Positions 24,478 through 32,682 of a stretch of 46,958 nt of DNA are shown here, in pieces. The notes under the pieces are model-generated. The model did not search any database and had not been told where the DNA came from. It saw only the letters and a list, made by a program, of their open reading frames with translations. A program made the translations under genes and the position numbers. Position 1 is the first letter of the stretch, and every line of letters starts with the position of its first letter. The stretch is from an uncultured Candidatus Bathyarchaeia archaeon (GTDB lineage Archaea > Thermoproteota > Bathyarchaeia > Bathyarchaeales > Bathyarchaeaceae): contig CAYGAE010000002.1 of assembly GCA_964347855.1 (NCBI GenBank), positions 1 through 46,958 on the forward strand, read 5' to 3'.

Positions 24478-24614
24478 GGTACATCTGAAAGAGCCTCTGA
24501 TAATTTAACCTTACGTGCGCCGCATCTAATGAAATCACGCCCAAGCTTTTCTGAAGATCCTTGAACTAACATCTACACTAGCATAATAAAATCCCTTAAT
24601 AGTCAGAAATTTGC

Positions 24615-24623
24615 CTATTAATT
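24615..24623 (+). promoter_or_regulatory. putative TATA box of the SMC-like gene (leaderless spacing)
   Basis: CTATTAATT 25-33 nt upstream of ATG 24648. Confidence 0.35.
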
Positions 24624-24647
24624 CCGCACTATGAGGGTTTCGCACCG

Positions 24648-26690
24648 ATGTTGATCCGGGAGGTTATCCTAGAAAATTTCATGTCCTACGAATATGCTAG
24701 GATACCCTTTAAACCGGGAGTCAACATTATCTGCGGACCCAACGGCTCAGGCAAATCCTCCATGCTTCTCGGAATCTCTGTGGCACTAGGCCAATCTTAC
24801 ACAGAAAGATCGAAGAAACTGAGCGATCTCATCCGGTGGGGAAAGGACCAAGCGCGTGTTACGGTTGTCCTAGACAACTCCAATAGAAATGGGCATCGAC
24901 CAGTTAGAAGGATCAATAAAGACTACATTTATCTGACGCGAATTTTGAGGCGGGACGGAAAATACTGGTTCGAACTCGAAAACAGGGCTGCGACAAAGAG
25001 TGAGGTCAACAGACTTCTCTCAAAGTTTGGAGTAGATCCAGACAACATGCTTATTATCATGCACCAAAACATGGTTGAACAATTCACGGTACTCCCTTTT
25101 CAAGAAAAACTGAGAATGGTTGAAGCTGCTGTAGGACTGGAATCCTACCGCCAAAACGTACTCATGGCTCAACGCAAACTAACACGCATCTTAAGCCAAG
25201 AGGAATCCGTGAATAAGCTTCTAGAGTCTGCTGAGCAAACCCTAACATACTGGAGAGAACAGTACGACCGCTACCAAGAGAAAAAACAACTAAAAATGAA
25301 ACGCCGCTTTCTGGACAGAGAATTGGCATGGGCTGAAGCTGGAAAAGTCCAGAAAACGGTCAACACCCTCAAAGAACAGATCGGAAAGAGACAGAACGAA
25401 ATACAAGAAATCGAAAACAGCGTAGAAGCCACCAACGGCGAGTTAGACAAGCTTCAGACAAAGCTAGCGCAGTCAAAGACCGAGTGGAGAAAACTCCTCG
25501 AAGAACTGCTTACACTGGAACGCGCAAAGGGAAGACACGAGTCACACCTTTCGTTGGTTAATCAAACCCTGAAAGAAACGCAATCTTGGGCGGCGATTCA
25601 TCAAAAAGAAACCAAAGAACACCTAGAGAAGATAGAACTACTAAGAACCAGCCTCCCTGGCAGTAACCCATCCGGGCTCAAACCTCCCTTCACAGAGATC
25701 AAAACGGCCTACGAGAATCTTGAGAAATCGTGGACCCAACGGTTTAACCTTAAAACCCAAGACCTAGAAGAATCCATCAAAGACTCGCAGCAAAGACTCG
25801 GAAAACTGGAAGCCGGAACCTCAGAAGCCAGAGAGAAGACTGATCACCTAGACTCAGAGATAGAAGGAATAAACAGCAACCTGGTGAGCCACAAGATTAA
25901 CCTAGCCCTACTGGAGTATCGAAGAGAAAGCCTGACTAGAGCCGTGAAAAAACTAGACAAGGAACTTCAAGCCTCCCTAACCGACCTTGACGAGGCAATC
26001 AGAAGAGCCCAGGACACGGGACCACAATTAGTGCCCATGAAGAGCATAGCGGAGATTTTAGATGAGATTCGTGTAACTGACGGCCATCTCGCAGCCTTGG
26101 CAGACGTTTCCGAAGACATCGAACGCATGTACGAGAAATATTCCAAACTGTACTTGGAGCTAAAAGAGAAAGCTCGCCAAGTTGCTGAAAACCGAGAAAA
26201 AGCCTTAGAAGAAGTAAAAACAAGGATGAACGCCTGGAGAACAGTCATTCAAAACCTCCTAGACCACATCAACATCCAGTATCAAGGAATCCTCTGGAAC
26301 GCCCAAGCAGTCGGTGACGTTCGGTTACTAAACGGACATGACATCGAAGCGGCGGGCCTACAGATTTTTGTAGGCTTTAGAGGATCGAAACCCGTTCCCC
26401 TCAACGCCTACACGCAGAGTGGCGGAGAAAGAAGCACTGCAACCATGGCCTTTCTTCTGGCACTTCAGCAGCACGTTCAATCCCCCTTCAGAGCCGTTGA
26501 TGAATATGACATCCATATGGACCCAAGAAACAGGGAAATAATCGCCGATCTTCTTGTTTCTTCTGTTGAAGGGACAGTCGCCCAGTACCTAGCCATCACG
26601 CCGAGCCAGATAACCTTCTCTGGAAAGGACGTCCACATCATCACAGTACAAAACGTTGAAGGGACAGCGCTGGTAAAAGAGGTAGCATGA
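24648..26690 (+). CDS. SMC-like ABC ATPase, short-armed and hinge-less (SMC5/6-like / archaeal SMC-related protein)
   Basis: 680 aa. N-terminal LENFMSY...GPNGSGKSS (Walker A). ~500 aa of heptad-rich charged sequence is interrupted near the midpoint by PGSNPSGLKPP. C-terminal signature QSGGERS and Walker B FRAVDEYDIHMD. Confidence 0.85.
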   Translation: MLIREVILENFMSYEYARIPFKPGVNIICGPNGSGKSSMLLGISVALGQSYTERSKKLSDLIRWGKDQARVTVVLDNSNRNGHRPVRRINKDYIYLTRILRRDGKYWFELENRAATKSEVNRLLSKFGVDPDNMLIIMHQNMVEQFTVLPFQEKLRMVEAAVGLESYRQNVLMAQRKLTRILSQEESVNKLLESAEQTLTYWREQYDRYQEKKQLKMKRRFLDRELAWAEAGKVQKTVNTLKEQIGKRQNEIQEIENSVEATNGELDKLQTKLAQSKTEWRKLLEELLTLERAKGRHESHLSLVNQTLKETQSWAAIHQKETKEHLEKIELLRTSLPGSNPSGLKPPFTEIKTAYENLEKSWTQRFNLKTQDLEESIKDSQQRLGKLEAGTSEAREKTDHLDSEIEGINSNLVSHKINLALLEYRRESLTRAVKKLDKELQASLTDLDEAIRRAQDTGPQLVPMKSIAEILDEIRVTDGHLAALADVSEDIERMYEKYSKLYLELKEKARQVAENREKALEEVKTRMNAWRTVIQNLLDHINIQYQGILWNAQAVGDVRLLNGHDIEAAGLQIFVGFRGSKPVPLNAYTQSGGERSTATMAFLLALQQHVQSPFRAVDEYDIHMDPRNREIIADLLVSSVEGTVAQYLAITPSQITFSGKDVHIITVQNVEGTALVKEVA

Positions 26691-27509
26691 TTGGCTTCCA
26701 AGAAACAGAGAAAAATACTCGGCAGTGAACATCTCAAACGCATCATCGATCTATGTAAGTCCGTTGAGGAGAGAGGTCTTGACCCCTTCCTAGTAGAGGT
26801 TGATGACATAATCGCTGTTATTCGAGAGTATTTTTCTGATTGGAAGTCGCCTGAAGAGCTTTGTTTAGACGCTGAAACCGTCCACAAGCTGGCGTCTGTT
26901 ATTAAACTTCAAAGTGACTGGGTCAAGCACAGATCGACTTCCCTCTACACAGATCCCTTTCTTCTCGAGGAGAAGACACAAAAACTAAGCAGGGAAGCCT
27001 TTACCACACTGTTTCTTAAATGTTGGCATCCAATCATCGAATTAGAGCAAATATCCTCTCACAGTCTCGCTCAGGCTATCAAATACTGGCAAGACCTCCT
27101 CCCGTTGAAAGAACGATGGTTGAATTTCTCCGCTCAAGAGATAGAAACTGGAGCCACAACTCGTGACGAGCTTATCAAGTTGGGAATTATTGGGGCGAGG
27201 GCTTTTTCGGAGGATTTAGAAGTCCTTTGGGAGGAGTTGAAGCACAGGGTCGGCGAGGAAGGTAAAATTCGATACTGGGACTTTGTTGGGGCCGACACTT
27301 ATTCCAGCACGATAAGACGGGCTTTCCTGACAAGCTTTCTAATAACATACGGGTATGCCACCTTGGAAGTACATCGGCTAGAAGAGGAGACCTTTATCAA
27401 ACCCTTCGAAAAGCCGGTATCCTTTCAACAGAAAAAACAAGTGATCTCCATTCCCGTCTCCATAAGCCTTGAAGACTGGATGAGATGGAAGGAGGATAAG
27501 CAGAATTGA
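26691..27509 (+). CDS. kleisin-like (ScpA-like) partner of the SMC-like ATPase
   Basis: 272 aa with a TTG start directly after the SMC stop. The N-terminal GLDPFLVEVDDIIAVIREYF resembles the ScpA N-terminal helix region. The C-terminal RRAFLTSFLITYGYATLEVHRLEEETFIKPF resembles the kleisin C-terminal winged helix. Confidence 0.55.
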   Translation: MASKKQRKILGSEHLKRIIDLCKSVEERGLDPFLVEVDDIIAVIREYFSDWKSPEELCLDAETVHKLASVIKLQSDWVKHRSTSLYTDPFLLEEKTQKLSREAFTTLFLKCWHPIIELEQISSHSLAQAIKYWQDLLPLKERWLNFSAQEIETGATTRDELIKLGIIGARAFSEDLEVLWEELKHRVGEEGKIRYWDFVGADTYSSTIRRAFLTSFLITYGYATLEVHRLEEETFIKPFEKPVSFQQKKQVISIPVSISLEDWMRWKEDKQN

Positions 27510-27734
27510 AGAGGCAAGCCTTCCTCATAGTAGGCTTTTAGCGTCAGTCGATAGAGAAAGTTGCAGCCAAGAACGACAATTTTGGAAAGGCATGATATAA
27601 CACCTTTACTCACAGCAATTATTTTACGGGATAGAAAACATCAAATTTAACCATTTTGTCTCTCGTTAGATTTTCTTTTTTCAAGAAAGCTTGAACAACT
27701 CTGACATCAAAACCAACCTTGTAGCGATTCCCCT

Positions 27735-27745
27735 GCGCGCGCGCG
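27735..27745. repeat. alternating (GC)5.5 tract
   Basis: cctGCGCGCGCGCGatg. 22 nt upstream of TTTTAATATT (27768-27777), the putative hdrC1 TATA box. Confidence 0.95.
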
Positions 27746-27767
27746 ATGCGTCTTGTGGAAACAAAAG

Positions 27768-27777
27768 TTTTAATATT
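27768..27777 (+). promoter_or_regulatory. putative TATA box of the plus-strand hdr operon
   Basis: TTTTAATATT ~41 nt upstream of ATG 27818, preceded by the (GC)5.5 tract. Confidence 0.4.
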
Positions 27778-27817
27778 ACCATAATTATGATTGCTTACAT
27801 CAAATTCGGGATCCACA

Positions 27818-28285
27818 ATGCGCGAATGTTCTCCCAATGAAACTAATGAGAAACACAATGTAGATAATCTCTATCTCTGTTATCAGTGTGGAACCTGCAG
27901 TGGTGGATGTCCAGTCACCAGATTGGTCCCTGAATACAATATCAGAAAGATTGTCAAACTCAGAAAAGAAAACAGGATCGATGTTAGAAGTAGATTTCTT
28001 TGGTACTGCCTGACTTGTTATATATGTTATGAGCGATGTCCTCAAGGGGTCAAACCAATCGAAGTCATCCATTCTGTCACAAATTTTGTATCGAGAAATG
28101 GATTTGCCCCCTCATCTCTGAAGGAAGGTAATAAGAAAATCCTAGCTGTAGGTCGCAGTAGTGACCTCACCAAATTCACTGAACAAAAACGAGGAAAATT
28201 GGGGCTGCCAGAATTGAAAATAGATGTATCAAAGGACTTTAAAGAAATTTCTAAAATGACAGGGTTGGCAGAGATGATTCAATGA
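27818..28285 (+). CDS. hdrC: heterodisulfide reductase subunit C-like (2x[4Fe-4S])
   Basis: CYQCGTCSGGCP and CLTCYICYERCP ferredoxin motifs. The ATG at 27818 is preferred over the track start at 27791. ATGA overlap with hdrB. Confidence 0.8.
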   Translation: MRECSPNETNEKHNVDNLYLCYQCGTCSGGCPVTRLVPEYNIRKIVKLRKENRIDVRSRFLWYCLTCYICYERCPQGVKPIEVIHSVTNFVSRNGFAPSSLKEGNKKILAVGRSSDLTKFTEQKRGKLGLPELKIDVSKDFKEISKMTGLAEMIQ

Positions 28286-29157
28286 ACCTTACATTATTCC
28301 TTGGATGCAATATTCCAACCCAAGTCTTCAACTATGAAGCCTCAGTCAGGAGAATTGCAGCCGCCTTTGGGATCAAGCTCAAAGATAACGTGGAGTTTGG
28401 TTGTTGCGGTGAGCTTACAGAAGCCATAGATTATTACACATCTCTCGTTTTTTCTGCAAGGAATATTGCCCTGGCAGAGAAGGAAGAGCAAGACATCTTA
28501 ACCTTGTGTAACGGATGTTTCTCTTCATTGAACAAAGCGATTTTCGCGCTAAATGATCCTCACTTGAGAAGCAGAGTCAACGAAGCCCTAAAAAAAATAG
28601 ATCTCTCCTACAAGGGGAAATCGCGCGTGTTTCACTTTCACCAACTGATGTACGATATCGTTGGACCTTCAAAGATTAAGGAAAAGATAGTTTTAAATTT
28701 GAACAATGTATCAGTTTCCTGCCATAACGGCTGCCACATCCTCAGACCAAGCGATGTTCTTGGATTCGACGATCCCCAAAATCCGAAGAAACTCGAAGAA
28801 CTTGTGGGATTGACAGGAGCTAAAATCGTTAAGCCAATAGGAATCGAACAATGCTGCGGATCGGTTCTGTCACTCTGTGATCTAGACGCCGCCCAATCAC
28901 TGGCAATAGAGTCTATTGAAAGAAAAGGCGAAGTGGATGCAATAGTGGTCGGTTGCCCTTTTTGTTTCAAACAATTTGATATGGGGCAAGTCGTCGCCAG
29001 AAAGAAATTCAACAAAGAATTAAGCATTCCCATACTCTTTTACGCCGAACTTCTTGGGCTGGCTCTCGGACTTAGACCAGAAGATCTTGGACTTAACATT
29101 GTCCATAAGATACGCACAGACGGGTTCTTGGAGAAGTTGGGGGTTTCTAATGGGTAG
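28282..29157 (+). CDS. hdrB: heterodisulfide reductase subunit B-like (two CCG domains)
   Basis: 291 aa. FGCCGE and EQCCGS with the associated CxxC/CPFC cysteines are typical of CCG domains. Confidence 0.85.
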   Translation: MNLTLFLGCNIPTQVFNYEASVRRIAAAFGIKLKDNVEFGCCGELTEAIDYYTSLVFSARNIALAEKEEQDILTLCNGCFSSLNKAIFALNDPHLRSRVNEALKKIDLSYKGKSRVFHFHQLMYDIVGPSKIKEKIVLNLNNVSVSCHNGCHILRPSDVLGFDDPQNPKKLEELVGLTGAKIVKPIGIEQCCGSVLSLCDLDAAQSLAIESIERKGEVDAIVVGCPFCFKQFDMGQVVARKKFNKELSIPILFYAELLGLALGLRPEDLGLNIVHKIRTDGFLEKLGVSNG

Positions 29158-30178
29158 AGTGTTGGTAGTGGGCGGTGGCATCGCTGGAATGCAGTCCTCG
29201 TTGGACTTAGCTGATATGGACCACCGGGTATATTTGGTCGAGAAGGAAAGAGAGTTGGGAGGCAATCTTAGGAATCTTTATAAAACCTTTCCTACAGACG
29301 AGATAACAGAGGAGTTTCTCTCCAACTTCACGGAGAAGGCAAAAGCACACACTAACATATCAGTTCTAACAGATTCAACTATCTGCAAATTTGAGGAAAA
29401 GACTCAGGCTTTCGAAGTCACAATTGACGTCGCAGGCAAGCCTGACACCATCAACGTCAACGCCATAGTTCTTGCAACAGGCTTTATTCCTTATGATCCA
29501 ACAGAAAAGACGGAGTATGGATACAACAGGTATAGGGATGTTATAACTTCAATAGACCTAGAAAGAATGATGAAAGAAGGAAAGTTAGCAAGACCCTCGA
29601 ACTCTGAGAAGCCCAAATCAGTAACATTTGTTCAGTGCGTCGGATGCAGAGATTCCAAAGCATATAGATACTGTTCCTACTTTTGCTGCACCTTAACCGT
29701 GAAAGATGCGCTTCTCATCAAAAGAGAATCTCCTGGCATAGATGTAACGGTCATGTACATGGACATTCGAACCCCTTACGTCTATGAGAATCTATATTTC
29801 GACGCTAGAAACATCGGCGTGAAATTTATCAGAGCCAGACCGGCTGAGATTTTTGAAAGGGGTGATAGGCTAGTTCTAAATTTCGAAGATACGTTAACGA
29901 GCGAAACACACAGCATTGAATCTGACTTAGTTGTTCTATCCGTTGGGGGAATACCTCCTCCAGAAGCAAAGGAGTTAGGCCAAATGATGAAGGTATCATT
30001 GGATGATACCGGTTTTTTCAAGGTTCACAACAGACCTTCAGGAACAGACGCAAATCGGATCTTTGTTGTAGGCGCAGCATGTGGTCCAAAAGATATAGAC
30101 TATTCTCTATCACAGGCAGGCGCTGCTGCCTCTCAGATAAACAAGCTTTTGAGGGGAACACATGCCGCTAATAAATAA
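29150..30178 (+). CDS. hdrA: short HdrA-like FAD-dependent oxidoreductase (~342 aa)
   Basis: MGRVLVVGGGIAGMQSSLD dinucleotide motif and the HdrA cysteine cluster VQCVGCRD...YCSYFCC. It lacks the ferredoxin and MvhD-binding domains of canonical HdrA. The start at 29150 overlaps the hdrB stop. Confidence 0.8.
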   Translation: MGRVLVVGGGIAGMQSSLDLADMDHRVYLVEKERELGGNLRNLYKTFPTDEITEEFLSNFTEKAKAHTNISVLTDSTICKFEEKTQAFEVTIDVAGKPDTINVNAIVLATGFIPYDPTEKTEYGYNRYRDVITSIDLERMMKEGKLARPSNSEKPKSVTFVQCVGCRDSKAYRYCSYFCCTLTVKDALLIKRESPGIDVTVMYMDIRTPYVYENLYFDARNIGVKFIRARPAEIFERGDRLVLNFEDTLTSETHSIESDLVVLSVGGIPPPEAKELGQMMKVSLDDTGFFKVHNRPSGTDANRIFVVGAACGPKDIDYSLSQAGAAASQINKLLRGTHAANK

Positions 30179-31223
30179 TTGCTACCAATGTGGATTATGT
30201 ACAGGAATTTGCCCAAAGAGGCGGATTTCTAAGTATTCCCCTCGCTTTAGAATTAACAAGTTTTTGTTAGAGAATGAAAGAAAGGTCACGTGGGAATGTC
30301 TTACCTGCGGACTTTGTTCGCAGTACTGCCCACAAGAGGTCAACTACATAGACTTCGTTCGAGACCTGAGAAAGCAAGACGTTGATGAAGAGGTGGTCGC
30401 TCATAAATCAATTTTTTCACTTATCTGTGAGATCATGACTAAATATCCTAGCGCTCGGGGGGTACCTACAGACTTCAAAGGGGAGATAGATCAAAACAGT
30501 GGCGTTGGCTATTTCCCTGGCTGTCTCGACTTTTTTGACTGCTTTTTGGATGTTGGCGTAGATTTCCATGAGATCGGCGAGTCAAGCATTAAGCTGCTAA
30601 ACCGGATTGATATTAAACCTAGAATTCTATCGTTAAAATGCTGCGGGCACGACGCACTCTGGCAAGGCTATGGCGCTGCCTTCGATGCACTAAGAAAATA
30701 CAACGAAAACCAAATAGAGAAAAGTGGAATCAAATCGCTCGTCACCTCTTGCGCAGAATGTTTTAGGACATTTTCGAAAGATTACGAACTTGACCTAGAG
30801 ATAACGCACATATCCCAAATACTTGAGAAAAATGGGGACAAATTGGACATTGAAACCAACGGCACCATAGCTACATACCATGACCCCTGTCGACTTGGCA
30901 GACACATGGAAGTATACGATGCGCCTAGAAACGTGCTGTCAAAAGTGAAAGGTCTCACGTTCAAAGAACTTGATGATGCTCGCGAAGATGCCCAGTGCTG
31001 TGGCGTATCTGCGTGGATTTCATGCAGTCCAGAGACCAAATTTCTAGTGATGGAAAAACTGGAAAAGGCAATGGATACAAATTCAAAGACTCTAATCACG
31101 GCGTGCCCAAAATGTTGTGCGCATTTGAATTGTATAAAGAATGAAAAGCCGCCGGTAAGAGATTTCAACATCGACGTTGAGGATCTAGCGGTTTTCTTAT
31201 CAAAATTGATTGACAAAAAGTGA
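30162..31223 (+). CDS. hdrD: HdrD-like fused HdrC/HdrB protein
   Basis: 353 aa: N-terminal CYQCGLCTGICP and CLTCGLCSQYCP, then two CCG domains (LKCCGHD, AQCCGVS). Confidence 0.8.
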   Translation: MPLINNCYQCGLCTGICPKRRISKYSPRFRINKFLLENERKVTWECLTCGLCSQYCPQEVNYIDFVRDLRKQDVDEEVVAHKSIFSLICEIMTKYPSARGVPTDFKGEIDQNSGVGYFPGCLDFFDCFLDVGVDFHEIGESSIKLLNRIDIKPRILSLKCCGHDALWQGYGAAFDALRKYNENQIEKSGIKSLVTSCAECFRTFSKDYELDLEITHISQILEKNGDKLDIETNGTIATYHDPCRLGRHMEVYDAPRNVLSKVKGLTFKELDDAREDAQCCGVSAWISCSPETKFLVMEKLEKAMDTNSKTLITACPKCCAHLNCIKNEKPPVRDFNIDVEDLAVFLSKLIDKK

Positions 31224-31226
31224 GCA

Positions 31227-31667
31227 ATGATGCCTGAGAATGAATTTGAACCGAGAATTGTGGTTTTCGCGTGCAACTGGTGTTCTTACGCGGGCGCAGA
31301 CTTGGCGGGGGTTGGTAGAATTCAATATCCTCCCACGGTAAGGATAATACGGATGATGTGTTCAAGTCGAGTTGATCCAGCCTTCATTTTGAAAGCTTTT
31401 CTCAGAGGAGCGGACGGAATCCTCGTTGCAGGCTGCCATCTTGGTGACTGCCATTATATCGAAGGCAACTACAATACTGAAAAGAGAATAAAGGAGACGA
31501 TGAAAGCCTTAGAATATGTGGGGTTTGAAGCCAAAAGATTAAGATTGGAGTGGATATCTGCGTCTGAAGGACCGAAATTTGCAAGCGTGATCAGAGAATT
31601 TACAGACGAGTTGAAAGAGTTGGGACCTAACCCTATACGAAAGACCGGTGGTGATATGAATGGATAG
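31227..31667 (+). CDS. mvhD: MvhD/FlpD-like [2Fe-2S] protein
   Basis: 146 aa. IVVFACNWCSYAGADLAG...MCSSRVDP...GCHLGDCHY is typical of the methyl-viologen-reducing hydrogenase delta subunit. Confidence 0.85.
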   Translation: MMPENEFEPRIVVFACNWCSYAGADLAGVGRIQYPPTVRIIRMMCSSRVDPAFILKAFLRGADGILVAGCHLGDCHYIEGNYNTEKRIKETMKALEYVGFEAKRLRLEWISASEGPKFASVIREFTDELKELGPNPIRKTGGDMNG

Positions 31668-32682
31668 CGTATTGGTAGTTGGTTCTGGAGTTGCTGGTCT
31701 CCAAGCTTCACTGGACGTCGCAGACTTTGGATACCATGTTTTTCTGGTCGAGAGAGAGCGTGAACTTGGAGGAAACCTGAAGAAGTTAGGTGAACTTTTC
31801 CCGACCGGTGAGAATGCTCCGGATTTACTTTCAAGTCTTTTGAGCAAGATTGAGGACAAGAAAAACATCACGGTCATGAAAGACTTTGAAATTCTAGATG
31901 TTAGGGGAGAATTTCCAGAGTTCAAGGTTAAAGTGAATGGTTCAAATGAAGAAAGGAGTTTAAATGTCAACGCCGTTATCTTAGCTACTGGGTTCAAGCC
32001 TTTTGACCCGTCGCCATTAAGGCAGTATGGATACGGCAGATATGAAGATGTGATCACTTCTTTAGAGTTAGAGGAAATGCTTAGGAAGGGAAACCTTGTA
32101 AGACCTTCGAGTTTGAAAAAACCAAACTCCATATCCATAATCCAGTGTGTTGGTTCGAGGGACAACAATACTAATACCTACTGCTCATCCTTTTGCTGCA
32201 GGTATGCCATTAAGTTCGCACAGCAGATCAAGAAAATGCATCCAGAAATGATGATAACCATACTATATATGGACATAAGAACTCCCTATGAAAGCGAGTT
32301 TGACTATAATAATGCTAGACTGTTGGGCGTCCAATTTCTCAGAGGAAAACCTGCAAGAGTTAGGAAAGCTAAGGATACTCTTGTAGTTCAGGTTGAAGAT
32401 ACATTAGAAAATGATTTAGTCTTCCTCGAGTCTGACCTCGTAGTGCTTTCTATCGGAGGAGTTCCCGATCCAACCACTACCTTTTTCAAGAATAAGTTGA
32501 ATCTCGAGATATCGGATTCAGGATTTTTCCATATAACAGAAAGGCCCGTCAGCACAAACGTACAAGGTGTTTTTGTCGCAGGTGCAGCAAGCGGGTTAAA
32601 AGACATCGCCTACTCGATGGCACAGGGAAGCTGTGCAGCAGCCAAAGTTGACATAATCCTAAAGCCCGCAGAAACCACGTAA
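31660..32682 (+). CDS. hdrA: short HdrA-like FAD-dependent oxidoreductase (~340 aa), second copy
   Basis: VLVVGSGVAGLQASLD and IQCVGSRD...YCSSFCC. Its start overlaps the mvhD stop. Confidence 0.8.
   Translation: MDSVLVVGSGVAGLQASLDVADFGYHVFLVERERELGGNLKKLGELFPTGENAPDLLSSLLSKIEDKKNITVMKDFEILDVRGEFPEFKVKVNGSNEERSLNVNAVILATGFKPFDPSPLRQYGYGRYEDVITSLELEEMLRKGNLVRPSSLKKPNSISIIQCVGSRDNNTNTYCSSFCCRYAIKFAQQIKKMHPEMMITILYMDIRTPYESEFDYNNARLLGVQFLRGKPARVRKAKDTLVVQVEDTLENDLVFLESDLVVLSIGGVPDPTTTFFKNKLNLEISDSGFFHITERPVSTNVQGVFVAGAASGLKDIAYSMAQGSCAAAKVDIILKPAETT

What the first reader, a model, noticed from the sequence alone, without database searches (positions are those of the whole stretch)
24648..27509. 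Short hinge-less SMC5/6-like ATPase with a kleisin-like partner, divergent from the rSAM operon
Seen: the 680-aa protein has SMC head halves (ENFMSY...GPNGSGKSS; QSGGERS; FRAVDEYDIHMD). They are separated by about 500 aa of coiled-coil-like sequence. At the midpoint it has only a Pro/Gly loop (PGSNPSGLKPP, about 25654-25695) instead of a hinge domain or a Rad50 CxxC zinc hook. The next gene starts right after its stop. It has ScpA-like N-terminal (GLDPFLVEVDDIIAVIREYF) and C-terminal winged-helix-like (AFLTSFLITYGYATLEVHRLEEETFIKPF) signatures. From memory, the NFM motif and the FR.vDE.D..MD Walker B resemble eukaryotic SMC5/SMC6 more than canonical SMC, as reported for archaea-specific SMC-related proteins. 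Inference: this is a minimal two-component SMC-kleisin module. Its role is open: chromosome organisation, or plasmid or virus restriction in the manner of Wadjet or SMC5/6. No KITE/ScpB or nuclease partner is adjacent.
Basis: partly seen in the sequence, partly recalled or inferred. Interest (0 to 1): 0.6.

Follow-up and report, generated by a model that had tools for sequence, protein, structure and literature searches.

The report
Hinge-less archaeal SMC5/6-like module, kite missing
These two genes are a Bathyarchaeia copy of the already published archaeal relative of the eukaryotic SMC5/6 genome-maintenance complex, with a half-length ATPase that has no hinge and an Nse4-type kleisin, and this genome has lost, or its assembly has dropped, the third (kite) gene that nearly all surveyed relatives carry.

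Summary
ORFs 24648-26690 (680 aa) and 26691-27509 (272 aa) exist, abut each other and carry the quoted motifs.

- **ATPase:** it is an SMC-superfamily protein closest to eukaryotic SMC6 and SMC5. It is not closest to canonical Smc, Rad50 or ASRP.
- **Arm:** the model is one antiparallel coiled coil closed by a 9-residue loop, with no hinge domain and no zinc hook.
- **Partner:** it is a kleisin of the Nse4 type by profile and by fold.
- **Conservation:** the pair is adjacent in 77 of 80 Bathyarchaeia loci. The kleisin family occurs in 198 of 401 sampled genomes of the phylum.
- **Not a two-gene system:** an Nse1/Nse3 (MAGE)-like kite gene follows the kleisin in about 125 surveyed relatives.
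- **Kite loss here:** homology to a 95.6%-identical relative stops at base 27521, five codons into that gene. No kite was found in the 94%-complete genome.
- **Other complexes:** the genome also has canonical SMC-ScpA-ScpB and Mre11-Rad50.
- **Novelty:** the operon type is published (Yoshinaga and Inagaki 2021; van Hooff et al. 2025). The hinge-less form is not mentioned in the parts of those papers I read or word-searched. This scan already noted it in at least 30 genomes.

It is a new member of a known kind, of moderate interest.

The parts
24648..26690 (+). Short SMC5/6-related ATPase, 680 aa (stop codon at 26688-26690)
   Evidence: ORF. Pfam SMC_N E 7.6e-36. Best PDB sequence matches are Smc5 and SMC6. 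Foldseek's top matches are Smc6 and Smc5.
24648..25142 (+). N-terminal half of the ATPase head (residues 1-165): ENFMSY, Walker A GPNGSGKSS, Q-loop MHQNM
   Evidence: AF2 secondary structure. These columns are invariant in family alignments A2 and A4.
25140..25652 (+). Outward arm helix (residues 165-335)
   Evidence: A single helix in the AF2 model, with pLDDT about 80-93.
25653..25679 (+). Apex loop (residues 336-344, PGSNPSGLK), where a hinge or hook would sit
   Evidence: AF2 gives a 9-residue loop with low pLDDT. The region is rich in indels and not conserved across the family, and carries no Cys.
25680..26300 (+). Return arm (residues 345-551), with two helix breaks at 458-466 and 484-489 around near-invariant G458 and E492; possibly the equivalent of the SMC 'joint'
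   Evidence: AF2 secondary structure and conservation in A4. Foldseek matches the P. yayanosii Smc head plus joint, 5xei. The joint assignment is inference.
26301..26687 (+). C-terminal half of the ATPase head (residues 552-680): signature QSGGER, Walker B and D-loop PFRAVDEYDIHMD, and QYLAITP in place of the H-loop
   Evidence: The printed alignment to yeast and human Smc5 shares QSGGER, PFRxVDExxxxMD and QYxxITP. The genome's canonical SMC reads SSGERS, FYLFDEIDAHLD and QFLVVTL instead.
26691..27509 (+). Nse4-type kleisin, 272 aa, TTG start abutting the ATPase stop
   Evidence: Pfam Nse4_C E 0.0016 for this protein alone, and 39 of 95 family members match it, best 7e-9. The family profile hits human NSE4/EID3 at 2e-7 and yeast Nse4 at 2.4e-7. 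The AF2 model has pLDDT 88. Foldseek's top matches are Nse4 chains 7qcd_F (5e-6) and 7tve_G.
26700..26945 (+). N-terminal helical domain of the kleisin (residues 4-85), the expected SMC-neck binder
   Evidence: Helices 4-28, 37-48 and 54-85 with pLDDT above 90. Profile positions 4-75 match the ScpA N-terminal domain 6ivh_A at E 0.005. Neck binding is inferred from known kleisins.
27204..27404 (+). C-terminal winged-helix domain of the kleisin (residues 172-238), the expected SMC-cap binder
   Evidence: It aligns to the Nse4 C-terminal domain. Foldseek matches the ScpA C-terminal winged helix 4i99_C with TM 0.78 and Scc1-C 1w1w_E.
27506..27541 (+). Remnant of the kite gene: TTG start overlapping the kleisin stop, then LKRQA, then unrelated sequence and a stop. 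The homology breakpoint is at 27521/27522.
   Evidence: blastn to L141 gives 95.6% identity up to 27521 and nothing after it. L141 continues with a 185-aa kite that starts LKRKAYYS.
24478..24647 (.). 170-bp divergent intergenic region between the module and the minus-strand rSAM-linked operon; presumed promoter region
   Evidence: ORF layout. No promoter analysis was done, because the tools cover only bacterial sigma-70 sites. This is inference.

Best explanation
The two genes encode the ATPase and kleisin subunits of the archaeal 'SMC5/6-related' SMC complex. This is a second SMC machine that many TACK archaea carry beside canonical Smc-ScpAB.

Shown:
- The ATPase head is of the SMC5/6 type, with every ATP-binding and hydrolysis motif checked here intact (Walker A, Q-loop, signature, Walker B, D-loop).
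- Its arm is a single antiparallel coiled coil, about half the usual length, closed by a bare and non-conserved loop.
- The partner has the kleisin fold and sequence of Nse4.
- Relatives add an Nse1/3-like kite as a third, overlapping gene.

Inferred from known SMC complexes:
- Two ATPase protomers engage their heads around two ATP molecules.
- The kleisin's N-terminal helices bind the neck of one protomer and its C-terminal winged helix binds the cap of the other. A kite dimer normally sits on the kleisin's middle region.
- Together these form an ATP-gated DNA clamp or compartment on top of the heads, as in the DNA-bound yeast Smc5/6 core.
- There is no hinge, so the arms cannot close a large ring in the canonical way. 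Any arm-to-arm contact would have to be coiled-coil zippering or a weak tip contact.
- The likely role is chromosomal DNA maintenance or repair, not bulk condensation, which Smc-ScpAB covers.

In this genome the kite gene is gone beyond its fifth codon. Either the complex works without it, or borrows another kite, or is recently crippled, or the contig is mis-joined there.
For: - SMC5/6 affinity by profile: family profile A4 scores human SMC6 at 238 bits, yeast Smc6 at 234, yeast Smc5 at 218 and human SMC5 at 187. Pyrococcus Smc scores 172, SMC2 143, SMC3 132, SMC1 115, SMC4 110 and Rad50 48.
- Control: the genome's own 1182-aa SMC hits Pyrococcus Smc at 367 bits and SMC1-4 at 92-176 bits, and hits no SMC5 or SMC6 chain at E 1e-10.
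- Foldseek ranks Smc6 and Smc5 chains first.
- The motifs QSGGER, PFRxVDExxxxMD and QYxxITP are shared with yeast and human Smc5 in a printed alignment.
- Kleisin identity.
- Adjacency: 77 of 80 Bathyarchaeia loci and 17 of 20 diverse loci, where the ATPase is 581-661 aa.
- Kite: it follows the kleisin in 20 of 20, 76 of 80 and 29 of 30 loci. It weakly matches the MAGE/Nse3 chain 7dg2_C at E 0.007. Six of 21 members match Pfam SMC_Nse1 and 5 of 21 match MAGE.
- No hinge.
- Coexisting complexes: SMC-ScpA-ScpB on C30 and Mre11-Rad50 with a CPLC hook on C27.
- Literature: SMC5/6-related aSMC in TACK archaea including Bathyarchaeota (10.1101/2021.05.15.444277), and operons of an SMC5/6-related SMC, an Nse4-related kleisin and an Nse1/3-related kite (10.1101/2024.01.07.573240).
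- Both genes look functional. The ORFs are intact, the kleisin's pN/pS against its 96% relative is 0.19, and its 12 substitutions fall in variable columns.
Against: - There is no experimental datum for any member of this family, so the function is inferred by homology.
- No tree with eukaryotic sequences was built here. The affinity rests on score ranking, fold ranking, motifs and the published trees.
- The AF2 ATPase model is only moderately confident. pLDDT is below 50 at the P-loop (residues 24-35) and the C-terminal tail, and 53-58 at the apex.
- Subunit contacts were not modelled.
- Without a hinge it is unclear how, or whether, the protein dimerises other than through its heads. 'Works like SMC5/6' may therefore fail for ring formation and loop extrusion.
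- The kite is missing here. If kites are obligatory, this copy may be non-functional despite its intact ORFs.
- About half of the sampled genomes of the phylum lack the kleisin, so the complex is dispensable.
Confidence: 0.85

Rival explanations
1. The missing kite is an assembly artefact. The MAG contig is mis-joined at about 27521, and the real organism carries the usual three-gene operon.
For: - The genome is a 164-contig MAG with 6% contamination.
- Homology to a 95.6%-identical relative stops abruptly inside a gene.
- All 29 other loci sampled across the phylum have the kite, as do 76 of 80 Bathyarchaeia loci.
- In the same-family genome G429 the Hdr cluster to the right of the junction is not next to an SMC module.
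- The kleisin shows no sign of decay.
Against: - No other contig of the assembly carries the rest of the kite or the gene that follows it in L141. A simple mis-join should leave them on a contig end.
- About 237 bp of unique sequence lie between the breakpoint and the start of homology to G429. That looks like an ordinary intergenic region, not a join at a repeat.
Confidence: 0.35
2. The module is mainly an anti-plasmid or anti-virus defence system of the Wadjet or Lamassu kind. It would be an SMC-like sensor that recognises foreign DNA.
For: - The ATPase gives PADLOC matches to mad3 (5.5e-28), LmuB (6.7e-21), AriA and JetC.
- The complex is dispensable and patchily distributed: 198 of 401 genomes, and 4 of 6 in the window's own family.
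- It sits in variable surroundings.
- From general knowledge, human SMC5/6 restricts episomal viral DNA.
Against: - The PADLOC matches are generic SMC/ABC ATPase similarity and score far below the SMC5/6 matches.
- The kleisin has no PADLOC match.
- No nuclease or other effector gene is conserved next to the operon.
- There is one match, hence one apparent copy, in most genomes, and sequence identity falls with taxonomic distance, as for a vertically inherited housekeeping gene.
- In 8 of 20 diverse loci the conserved neighbour is an Lhr-type repair helicase, not a defence gene.
Confidence: 0.1
3. The ATPase belongs to a hook-type family, either Rad50/SbcC or the archaea-specific SMC-related proteins (coalescin ClsN, Sph), and not to the SMC5/6 lineage.
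For: - Its length (680 aa) and short coiled coil resemble ASRPs and short archaeal Rad50.
- NCBIfam gives sub-threshold matches to ASRP (84 bits) and Rad50 (87 bits).
Against: - The ASRP cut-off is 300 bits and the Rad50 cut-offs are 700 bits or more. SMC_prok_A scores higher, at 189 bits.
- The family profile gives Rad50 only 48 bits, against 238 for SMC6.
- There is no CxxC motif; the protein has one Cys. ASRPs and Rad50 carry a zinc hook (PMC9389158).
- The genome has its own Mre11-Rad50 pair with a CPLC hook.
- The partner is a kleisin, which Rad50 and ASRPs are not known to use.
Confidence: 0.02

Closest known systems
Archaeal 'SMC5/6-related' SMC complexes of TACK and Asgard archaea (Yoshinaga and Inagaki 2021, bioRxiv 10.1101/2021.05.15.444277, also PMC8665677; van Hooff et al. 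2025, bioRxiv 10.1101/2024.01.07.573240)
   Same: An SMC-superfamily ATPase closest to SMC5/6, followed by an Nse4-related kleisin and, in relatives, an Nse1/3-related kite. It coexists with a canonical SMC-ScpA-ScpB operon. Bathyarchaeia are among the listed lineages.
   Different: In the text I read or word-searched, those papers treat the family by phylogeny and gene order and say nothing about arm length or hinge. 'Hinge' appears only in general descriptions and reference titles, and 'shorter' does not appear. Their Bathyarchaeia table is patchy: many rows show a kite, or a kleisin and a kite, but no SMC5/6-related ATPase. Here the ATPase sits next to the kleisin in 77 of 80 loci. This window also lacks the kite.
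Eukaryotic Smc5/6 core (Smc5-Smc6-Nse4-Nse1-Nse3; for example PDB 7qcd, 7tve, 9lwi)
   Same: The head motifs match (QSGGER, PFRxVDExxxxMD, QYxxITP). These are the best sequence and fold matches for both the ATPase and the kleisin. The kite of relatives resembles MAGE/Nse1.
   Different: There is one ATPase gene, so presumably a homodimer, where eukaryotes have a heterodimer. The protein is 680 aa against about 1100. It has no hinge domain. The arm is about 170 residues per strand. The eukaryotic accessory subunits Nse2, Nse5 and Nse6 were not looked for here.
Canonical prokaryotic Smc-ScpAB (present in this genome on contig C30)
   Same: The general plan of an SMC ATPase, a kleisin and a kite encoded as consecutive genes, presumably with a homodimeric ATPase.
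   Different: The canonical protein is 1182 aa with a PF06470 hinge and pairs with ScpA and ScpB. Its PDB matches exclude SMC5/6. The window's ATPase has no hinge, half the length and an Nse4-type kleisin.
Hinge-less SMC variants of marine Actinobacteria (Environ Microbiome 2025, PMC12153180)
   Same: SMC-like heads on a coiled coil with no hinge and no CxxC hook.
   Different: That is a bacterial clade annotated as COG1196 SMC. It was not reported with an Nse4-type kleisin or a kite, and it is not of the SMC5/6 type. No relationship was tested here.
Archaea-specific SMC-related proteins (ASRP: coalescin ClsN, Sph1/2; PMC9389158)
   Same: Archaeal proteins of about 600 aa with an SMC-like head and a short antiparallel coiled coil.
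   Different: ASRPs carry a zinc hook and form their own clade. This protein scores 84 bits against the ASRP model's cut-off of 300, has no hook and has a kleisin partner.

Membership tests
Archaeal SMC5/6-related complex | The ATPase is closer to eukaryotic SMC5/SMC6 than to canonical Smc or SMC1-4 | tested here: met
   Profile scores are SMC6 238 and SMC5 218, against Smc 172 and SMC1-4 at 110-143. The control with the genome's canonical SMC gives the opposite ranking. Foldseek agrees, and the motifs are shared.
Archaeal SMC5/6-related complex | Placement inside the SMC5/6 clade in a phylogeny that includes eukaryotic sequences | not tested
   No full eukaryotic SMC sequences could be obtained. 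I rely on the published trees and the rankings above.
Archaeal SMC5/6-related complex | An adjacent Nse4-related kleisin | tested here: met
   The family profile hits NSE4/EID3 at 2e-7 and yeast Nse4 at 2.4e-7. Pfam Nse4_C matches 39 of 95 members. Foldseek's top matches are Nse4. The pair is adjacent in 77 of 80 loci.
Archaeal SMC5/6-related complex | An Nse1/3-related kite gene in the same operon | tested here: not met
   Absent from the window and from the whole 94%-complete genome. Only its first five codons remain, at 27506-27520. It is present in about 125 relatives, so the family has it and this copy does not.
Archaeal SMC5/6-related complex | Coexistence with a separate condensin-type SMC-kleisin-kite operon | tested here: met
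   Contig C30 carries SMC (1182 aa), ScpA (235 aa) and ScpB (193 aa).
Canonical SMC (Smc-ScpAB, SMC1-4) | A globular hinge dimerisation domain (PF06470) at the arm tip | tested here: not met
   No Pfam hinge match. The genome-wide PF06470 search hits only C30. AF2 shows a 9-residue loop at the apex. The shortest relatives have only about 290 residues between the two head halves.
Canonical SMC (Smc-ScpAB, SMC1-4) | ScpA-type kleisin and ScpB-type kite partners | tested here: not met
   The genome-wide PF02616 (ScpA) and PF04079 (ScpB) searches hit the C30 operon and not the window; the only other match is a sub-threshold PF04079 hit on C57. The partner's best matches are Nse4.
Rad50/SbcC | A CxxC zinc hook at the coiled-coil apex and an Mre11/SbcD partner | tested here: not met
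   The protein has a single Cys, C29. Rad50 scores 48 bits against the family profile. The genome's Mre11-Rad50 pair is on C27 and has a CPLC hook.
ASRP (coalescin/Sph) | A score above the NCBIfam NF045487 cut-off, and a zinc hook | tested here: not met
   84 bits against a cut-off of 300. There is no hook. The ASRP definition comes from PMC9389158.
Wadjet/Lamassu-type SMC defence systems | A dedicated nuclease or effector partner (JetD, LmuA) and family-specific ATPase models | tested here: not met
   PADLOC gives only generic head matches for the ATPase and nothing for the kleisin. No effector gene is conserved in the neighbourhood.

The most novel reading that the evidence does not exclude
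The short-armed, hinge-less architecture is the normal form of the whole TACK SMC5/6-related family, so an SMC-kleisin machine can work with no hinge at all. In addition, this genome would be a natural kite-less version that still functions as a two-subunit ATPase-kleisin DNA clamp. If both hold, the closest sampled prokaryotic relatives of SMC5/6 act as head-proximal clamps rather than large rings. The long arms and hinge of eukaryotic SMC5/6 would then be either retained from a form not seen here or regained.
Probability: 0.2. Interest if true: 0.65.

Novelty: new member of a known kind. Interest (0 to 1): 0.35.

Why it matters
The archaeal SMC5/6-related complex is the closest prokaryotic relative of a eukaryotic genome-maintenance machine whose mechanism is still debated. 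A small version, with a 580-680 aa ATPase, a 270 aa kleisin and a 190 aa kite, no hinge and short arms, would suit structural and single-molecule work. It directly tests which SMC activities (DNA clamping, entrapment, loop extrusion) need a hinge and long arms. This window adds a possible natural loss of the kite, which bears on whether kites are obligatory. It only matters if the junction is real. As a catalogue entry it is another example of a published operon type.

Tried and rejected
- **Independent assemblies:** exact look-ups of the window's own ATPase and kleisin found nothing on record. A 24-base pattern just right of the breakpoint found nothing in metagenome contigs.
- **Link to the divergent rSAM operon:** rejected, because none of the window's flanking genes is conserved next to the pair in 80 loci.
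- **Hdr cluster as the partner region:** rejected. In same-family genome G429 the Hdr cluster is homologous from window base 27759 onward and has no SMC module beside it.
- **The 79-aa minus-strand ORF (27619-27858) as a partner:** it has no Pfam match and no relative in the 80 loci, so it was not pursued.
- **Rad50 and ASRP readings:** rejected.
- **Phylogeny:** a tree with eukaryotic SMCs was not built, because only short aligned fragments of PDB chains were available. Score and fold rankings with a reciprocal control were used instead.
- **Asgard homologues:** I could not check whether they are long and hinged.


Full report
**1. The observation**

The ORF list shows two abutting plus-strand ORFs. 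The first runs 24648-26690 (680 aa, ATG start). The second runs 26691-27509 (272 aa, TTG start).

The 680-aa protein matches Pfam SMC_N from residue 3 to 664 at E 7.6e-36, and has no SMC_hinge match. The genes upstream on the opposite strand are a zinc-ribbon membrane protein, a 542-aa membrane protein with a Cys-Ala tail and an rSAM/SPASM enzyme. The window comes from a Bathyarchaeia MAG. The named close homologues are all Bathyarchaeota or Bathyarchaeia. The genome has 1.74 Mb in 164 contigs, is 94% complete and 6% contaminated.

**2. What the ATPase is**

Three independent comparisons place it with SMC5/6.

- Against all PDB sequences, the single protein hits yeast Smc5 best (E 2.6e-33), then human SMC6, then Pyrococcus Smc heads. 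Rad50 and RecF lie far below.
- A profile of 30 diverse family members (alignment A4) widens the gap. Human SMC6 scores 238 bits, yeast Smc6 234, yeast Smc5 218 and human SMC5 187. Pyrococcus Smc scores 172, SMC2 143, SMC3 132, SMC1 115, SMC4 110 and Rad50 48.
- As a control, the genome's canonical 1182-aa SMC gives the opposite picture. It hits Pyrococcus Smc at 367 bits and SMC1-4 at 92-176 bits, and hits no SMC5 or SMC6 chain at E 1e-10.

Foldseek with the AF2 model also ranks Smc6 and Smc5 chains first.

In the printed alignment yeast and human Smc5 share QSGGER, PFRVVDEINQGMD (the window has PFRAVDEYDIHMD) and QYF(L/F)ITP (the window has QYLAITP). The genome's canonical SMC reads SSGERS, FYLFDEIDAHLD and QFLVVTL at those places.

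NCBIfam scores rule out membership of ASRP (84 bits, cut-off 300) and of Rad50 (87 bits, cut-off 700).

**3. The arm and the missing hinge**

The AF2 model was built from a 70-sequence alignment and has mean pLDDT 78.8. Its layout is:

| Residues | Element |
|---|---|
| 1-162 | N-terminal half of the head |
| 165-335 | one continuous helix |
| 336-344 | nine-residue loop |
| 345-457 | helix |
| 458-466 and 484-489 | two short breaks |
| 490-551 | helix |
| 552-680 | C-terminal half of the head |

There is no globular domain at the tip.

- Across the family the head halves are nearly invariant. The middle of the arm is full of insertions and deletions, and total lengths range from 581 to 680 aa. 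No residue is conserved at the apex.
- The protein has a single cysteine, C29, so a Rad50 or ASRP-type zinc hook is excluded.
- In the whole genome only the canonical SMC matches the hinge model PF06470.
- The breaks at 458-489, around near-invariant G458 and E492, may correspond to the SMC 'joint'. That is inference, with some support from the Foldseek match to the P. yayanosii head plus joint structure 5xei.

**4. What the partner is**

On its own it gives only a sub-threshold Pfam Nse4_C match (E 0.0016) and a weak PDB match to yeast Nse4 (E 0.19).

A search of 1.84 billion cluster representatives found 244 relatives. I made a profile from 95 of them (alignment A1).

- The profile hits the C-terminal domain of human NSE4/EID3 at E 2e-7 and of yeast Nse4 at E 2.4e-7.
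- It hits the N-terminal domain of ScpA at E 0.005 and the ScpA C-terminal winged helix at about 0.2.
- Thirty-nine of the 95 members match Pfam Nse4_C individually, best 7e-9.
- The AF2 model (pLDDT 88) has an N-terminal helical domain, a helical middle and a C-terminal winged helix.
- Foldseek's two significant matches are Nse4 chains (7qcd_F at 5e-6, 7tve_G at 7e-5). The next matches include the C-terminal winged helices of ScpA and Scc1, and further down of Brn1.

It is a kleisin of the Nse4 type.

**5.

A scan of GTDB species representatives confirmed 562 relatives of the ATPase. The best 80 are all Bathyarchaeia.

- In 77 of these 80 loci the kleisin starts within a few bases of the ATPase stop. 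None of the window's other neighbours is conserved.
- The kleisin profile finds a match in 198 of 401 sampled genomes of the phylum. Some families are always positive and some large families always negative.
- I fetched twenty diverse loci from that sample. In 17 the kleisin is adjacent to a short ATPase of 581-661 aa; in two more the ATPase lies 0.4-1.4 kb away, and one showed none.
- In all 20 a third gene of 178-209 aa lies just downstream on the same strand, overlapping or abutting the kleisin in 19.
- An HMM of this third gene finds it after the kleisin in 76 of the 80 Bathyarchaeia loci. It also finds it in 29 of 30 further loci from the phylum sample. The one exception is the window's own genome.
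- A profile of the third gene weakly matches a MAGE-domain protein chain from PDB entry 7dg2 at E 0.007. Six of 21 members match Pfam SMC_Nse1 and five match MAGE.

It is therefore the Nse1/3-like kite described by van Hooff et al..

**6. The kite is missing here**

A six-frame HMM search of the whole genome finds no kite.

The closest relative on record has a kleisin that is 96% identical (contig JABAHO010009748, locus L141). It carries a 185-aa kite overlapping the kleisin stop. Window and L141 are 95.6% identical over 1166 bases, up to window position 27521, and unrelated after that.

The window still has the kite's TTG start and its first codons: LKRQA, against LKRKA in L141. It then runs into a stop at 27539-27541.

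Neither the rest of the kite nor the next gene of L141 is anywhere in the assembly. To the right, the Hdr-like cluster is homologous to same-family genome G429 from window base 27759 onward. G429 has no SMC module there.

This is either a real deletion or rearrangement, or a mis-join in the MAG. I could not decide between them:

- Exact-sequence look-ups found no independent assembly.
- A junction-side pattern found nothing in metagenome contigs.

The two remaining genes look healthy. The kleisin's pN/pS against L141 is 0.19, and its 12 substitutions fall in variable columns.

**7. Genomic setting**

The same genome encodes SMC (1182 aa, with hinge), ScpA and ScpB as consecutive genes on contig C30. 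It also encodes Mre11 with a 695-aa Rad50 carrying a CPLC hook on contig C27. The window's module is therefore a third, separate SMC-superfamily machine, as the published scheme for TACK archaea describes.

**8. How it probably works**

Shown:

- SMC5/6-type head motifs, with every ATP-binding and hydrolysis motif checked here intact.
- A short hairpin arm.
- An Nse4-type kleisin with both terminal domains.
- A kite in relatives.

Inferred from solved SMC complexes, named in section 9:

- Two ATPase protomers sandwich two ATP molecules between their heads.
- The kleisin's N-terminal helices bundle with the neck of one protomer. Its C-terminal winged helix binds the cap of the other.
- A kite dimer binds the kleisin's middle region. 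DNA is then clamped on top of the engaged heads.

Without a hinge, a large tripartite ring cannot form in the canonical way. The arms may lie side by side as a rod or meet weakly at the tips.

A role in DNA maintenance or repair is the best guess. Smc-ScpAB is available for bulk chromosome organisation, and an Lhr-type repair helicase is the conserved convergent neighbour in 8 of 20 diverse loci.

A defence role is a weaker rival. PADLOC gives only generic head matches, the kleisin has no match there, and no effector gene is conserved nearby.

**9. Comparison with what is known**

The operon type is published.

- Yoshinaga and Inagaki (2021) defined 'SMC5/6-related aSMC'. It occurs mostly in TACK archaea, including Bathyarchaeota.
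- The ASRP paper recovers the same sub-clade with full support.
- van Hooff et al. (2025) describe operons of an SMC5/6-related SMC, an Nse4-related kleisin and an Nse1/3-related kite in TACK and Asgard archaea.

Their Bathyarchaeia table is patchy. Many rows list a kite, or a kleisin and a kite, but no SMC5/6-related ATPase. The survey here finds the ATPase almost everywhere the kleisin is.

Neither paper mentions arm length or loss of the hinge in the parts I read or word-searched. A 2025 paper describes hinge-less SMCs in marine Actinobacteria, which is a different group.

This scan's own notes hold at least 30 earlier findings of the same hinge-less archaeal SMC5/6-like operon in other genomes. 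I read them only after reaching my own reading, and they agree with it.

**10. Verdict**

- It is wrong in treating the pair as a complete two-component system.
- This is a new member of a known kind. The one local peculiarity is the missing kite, whose reality is unproven.
- Interest is moderate (0.35). The hinge-less mini-SMC5/6 is a useful experimental object, but the family is published and the scan has seen it many times.

Noticed in passing
L121:4576-7443 and the equivalent genes in L122, L123, L125, L127, L129, L132 and L140: In 8 of 20 diverse loci of the phylum, a roughly 955-aa Lhr-type helicase (Pfam DEAD, DEAD_assoc, WH_Lhr) lies convergent just downstream of the kite gene of the SMC5/6-like operon. 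This could reflect a DNA-repair link or simply shared ancestry of those genomes.
   Followed up: partly
window 27619-27858 (minus strand): A 79-aa ORF sits in the unique stretch between the kite breakpoint and the Hdr-like cluster. It has no Pfam match and no relative in the 80 related loci. Its 5' part overlaps the region homologous to genome G429.
   Followed up: partly
own genome, contig C27:12267-15552 (minus strand): An Mre11 (402 aa) and Rad50 (695 aa) gene pair. This Rad50 is unusually short and has a CPLC zinc hook, so the genome carries three separate SMC-superfamily machines.
   Followed up: partly
supplementary table 3 of 10.1101/2024.01.07.573240 (Bathyarchaeia rows): The published census lists many Bathyarchaeia with an Nse1/3-like kite, or a kite and a kleisin, but no SMC5/6-related ATPase. 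Here the short ATPase is adjacent to the kleisin in 77 of 80 Bathyarchaeia loci. The census probably under-detects the short ATPases.
   Followed up: partly
genomes G162 and G176 (same family as the window), and 7 of the 44 other sampled genomes of its order: These genomes are 92-97% complete but have no match to the kleisin profile at all. The whole module seems to be lost repeatedly within close relatives.
   Followed up: no
window 27791-32682: A plus-strand Hdr-like cluster starts right after the junction. It has an HdrC-like ferredoxin, an HdrB-like CCG protein, two short HdrA-like flavoproteins, a fused HdrC/B-like protein and MvhD. Other notes of this scan already cover it.
   Followed up: no
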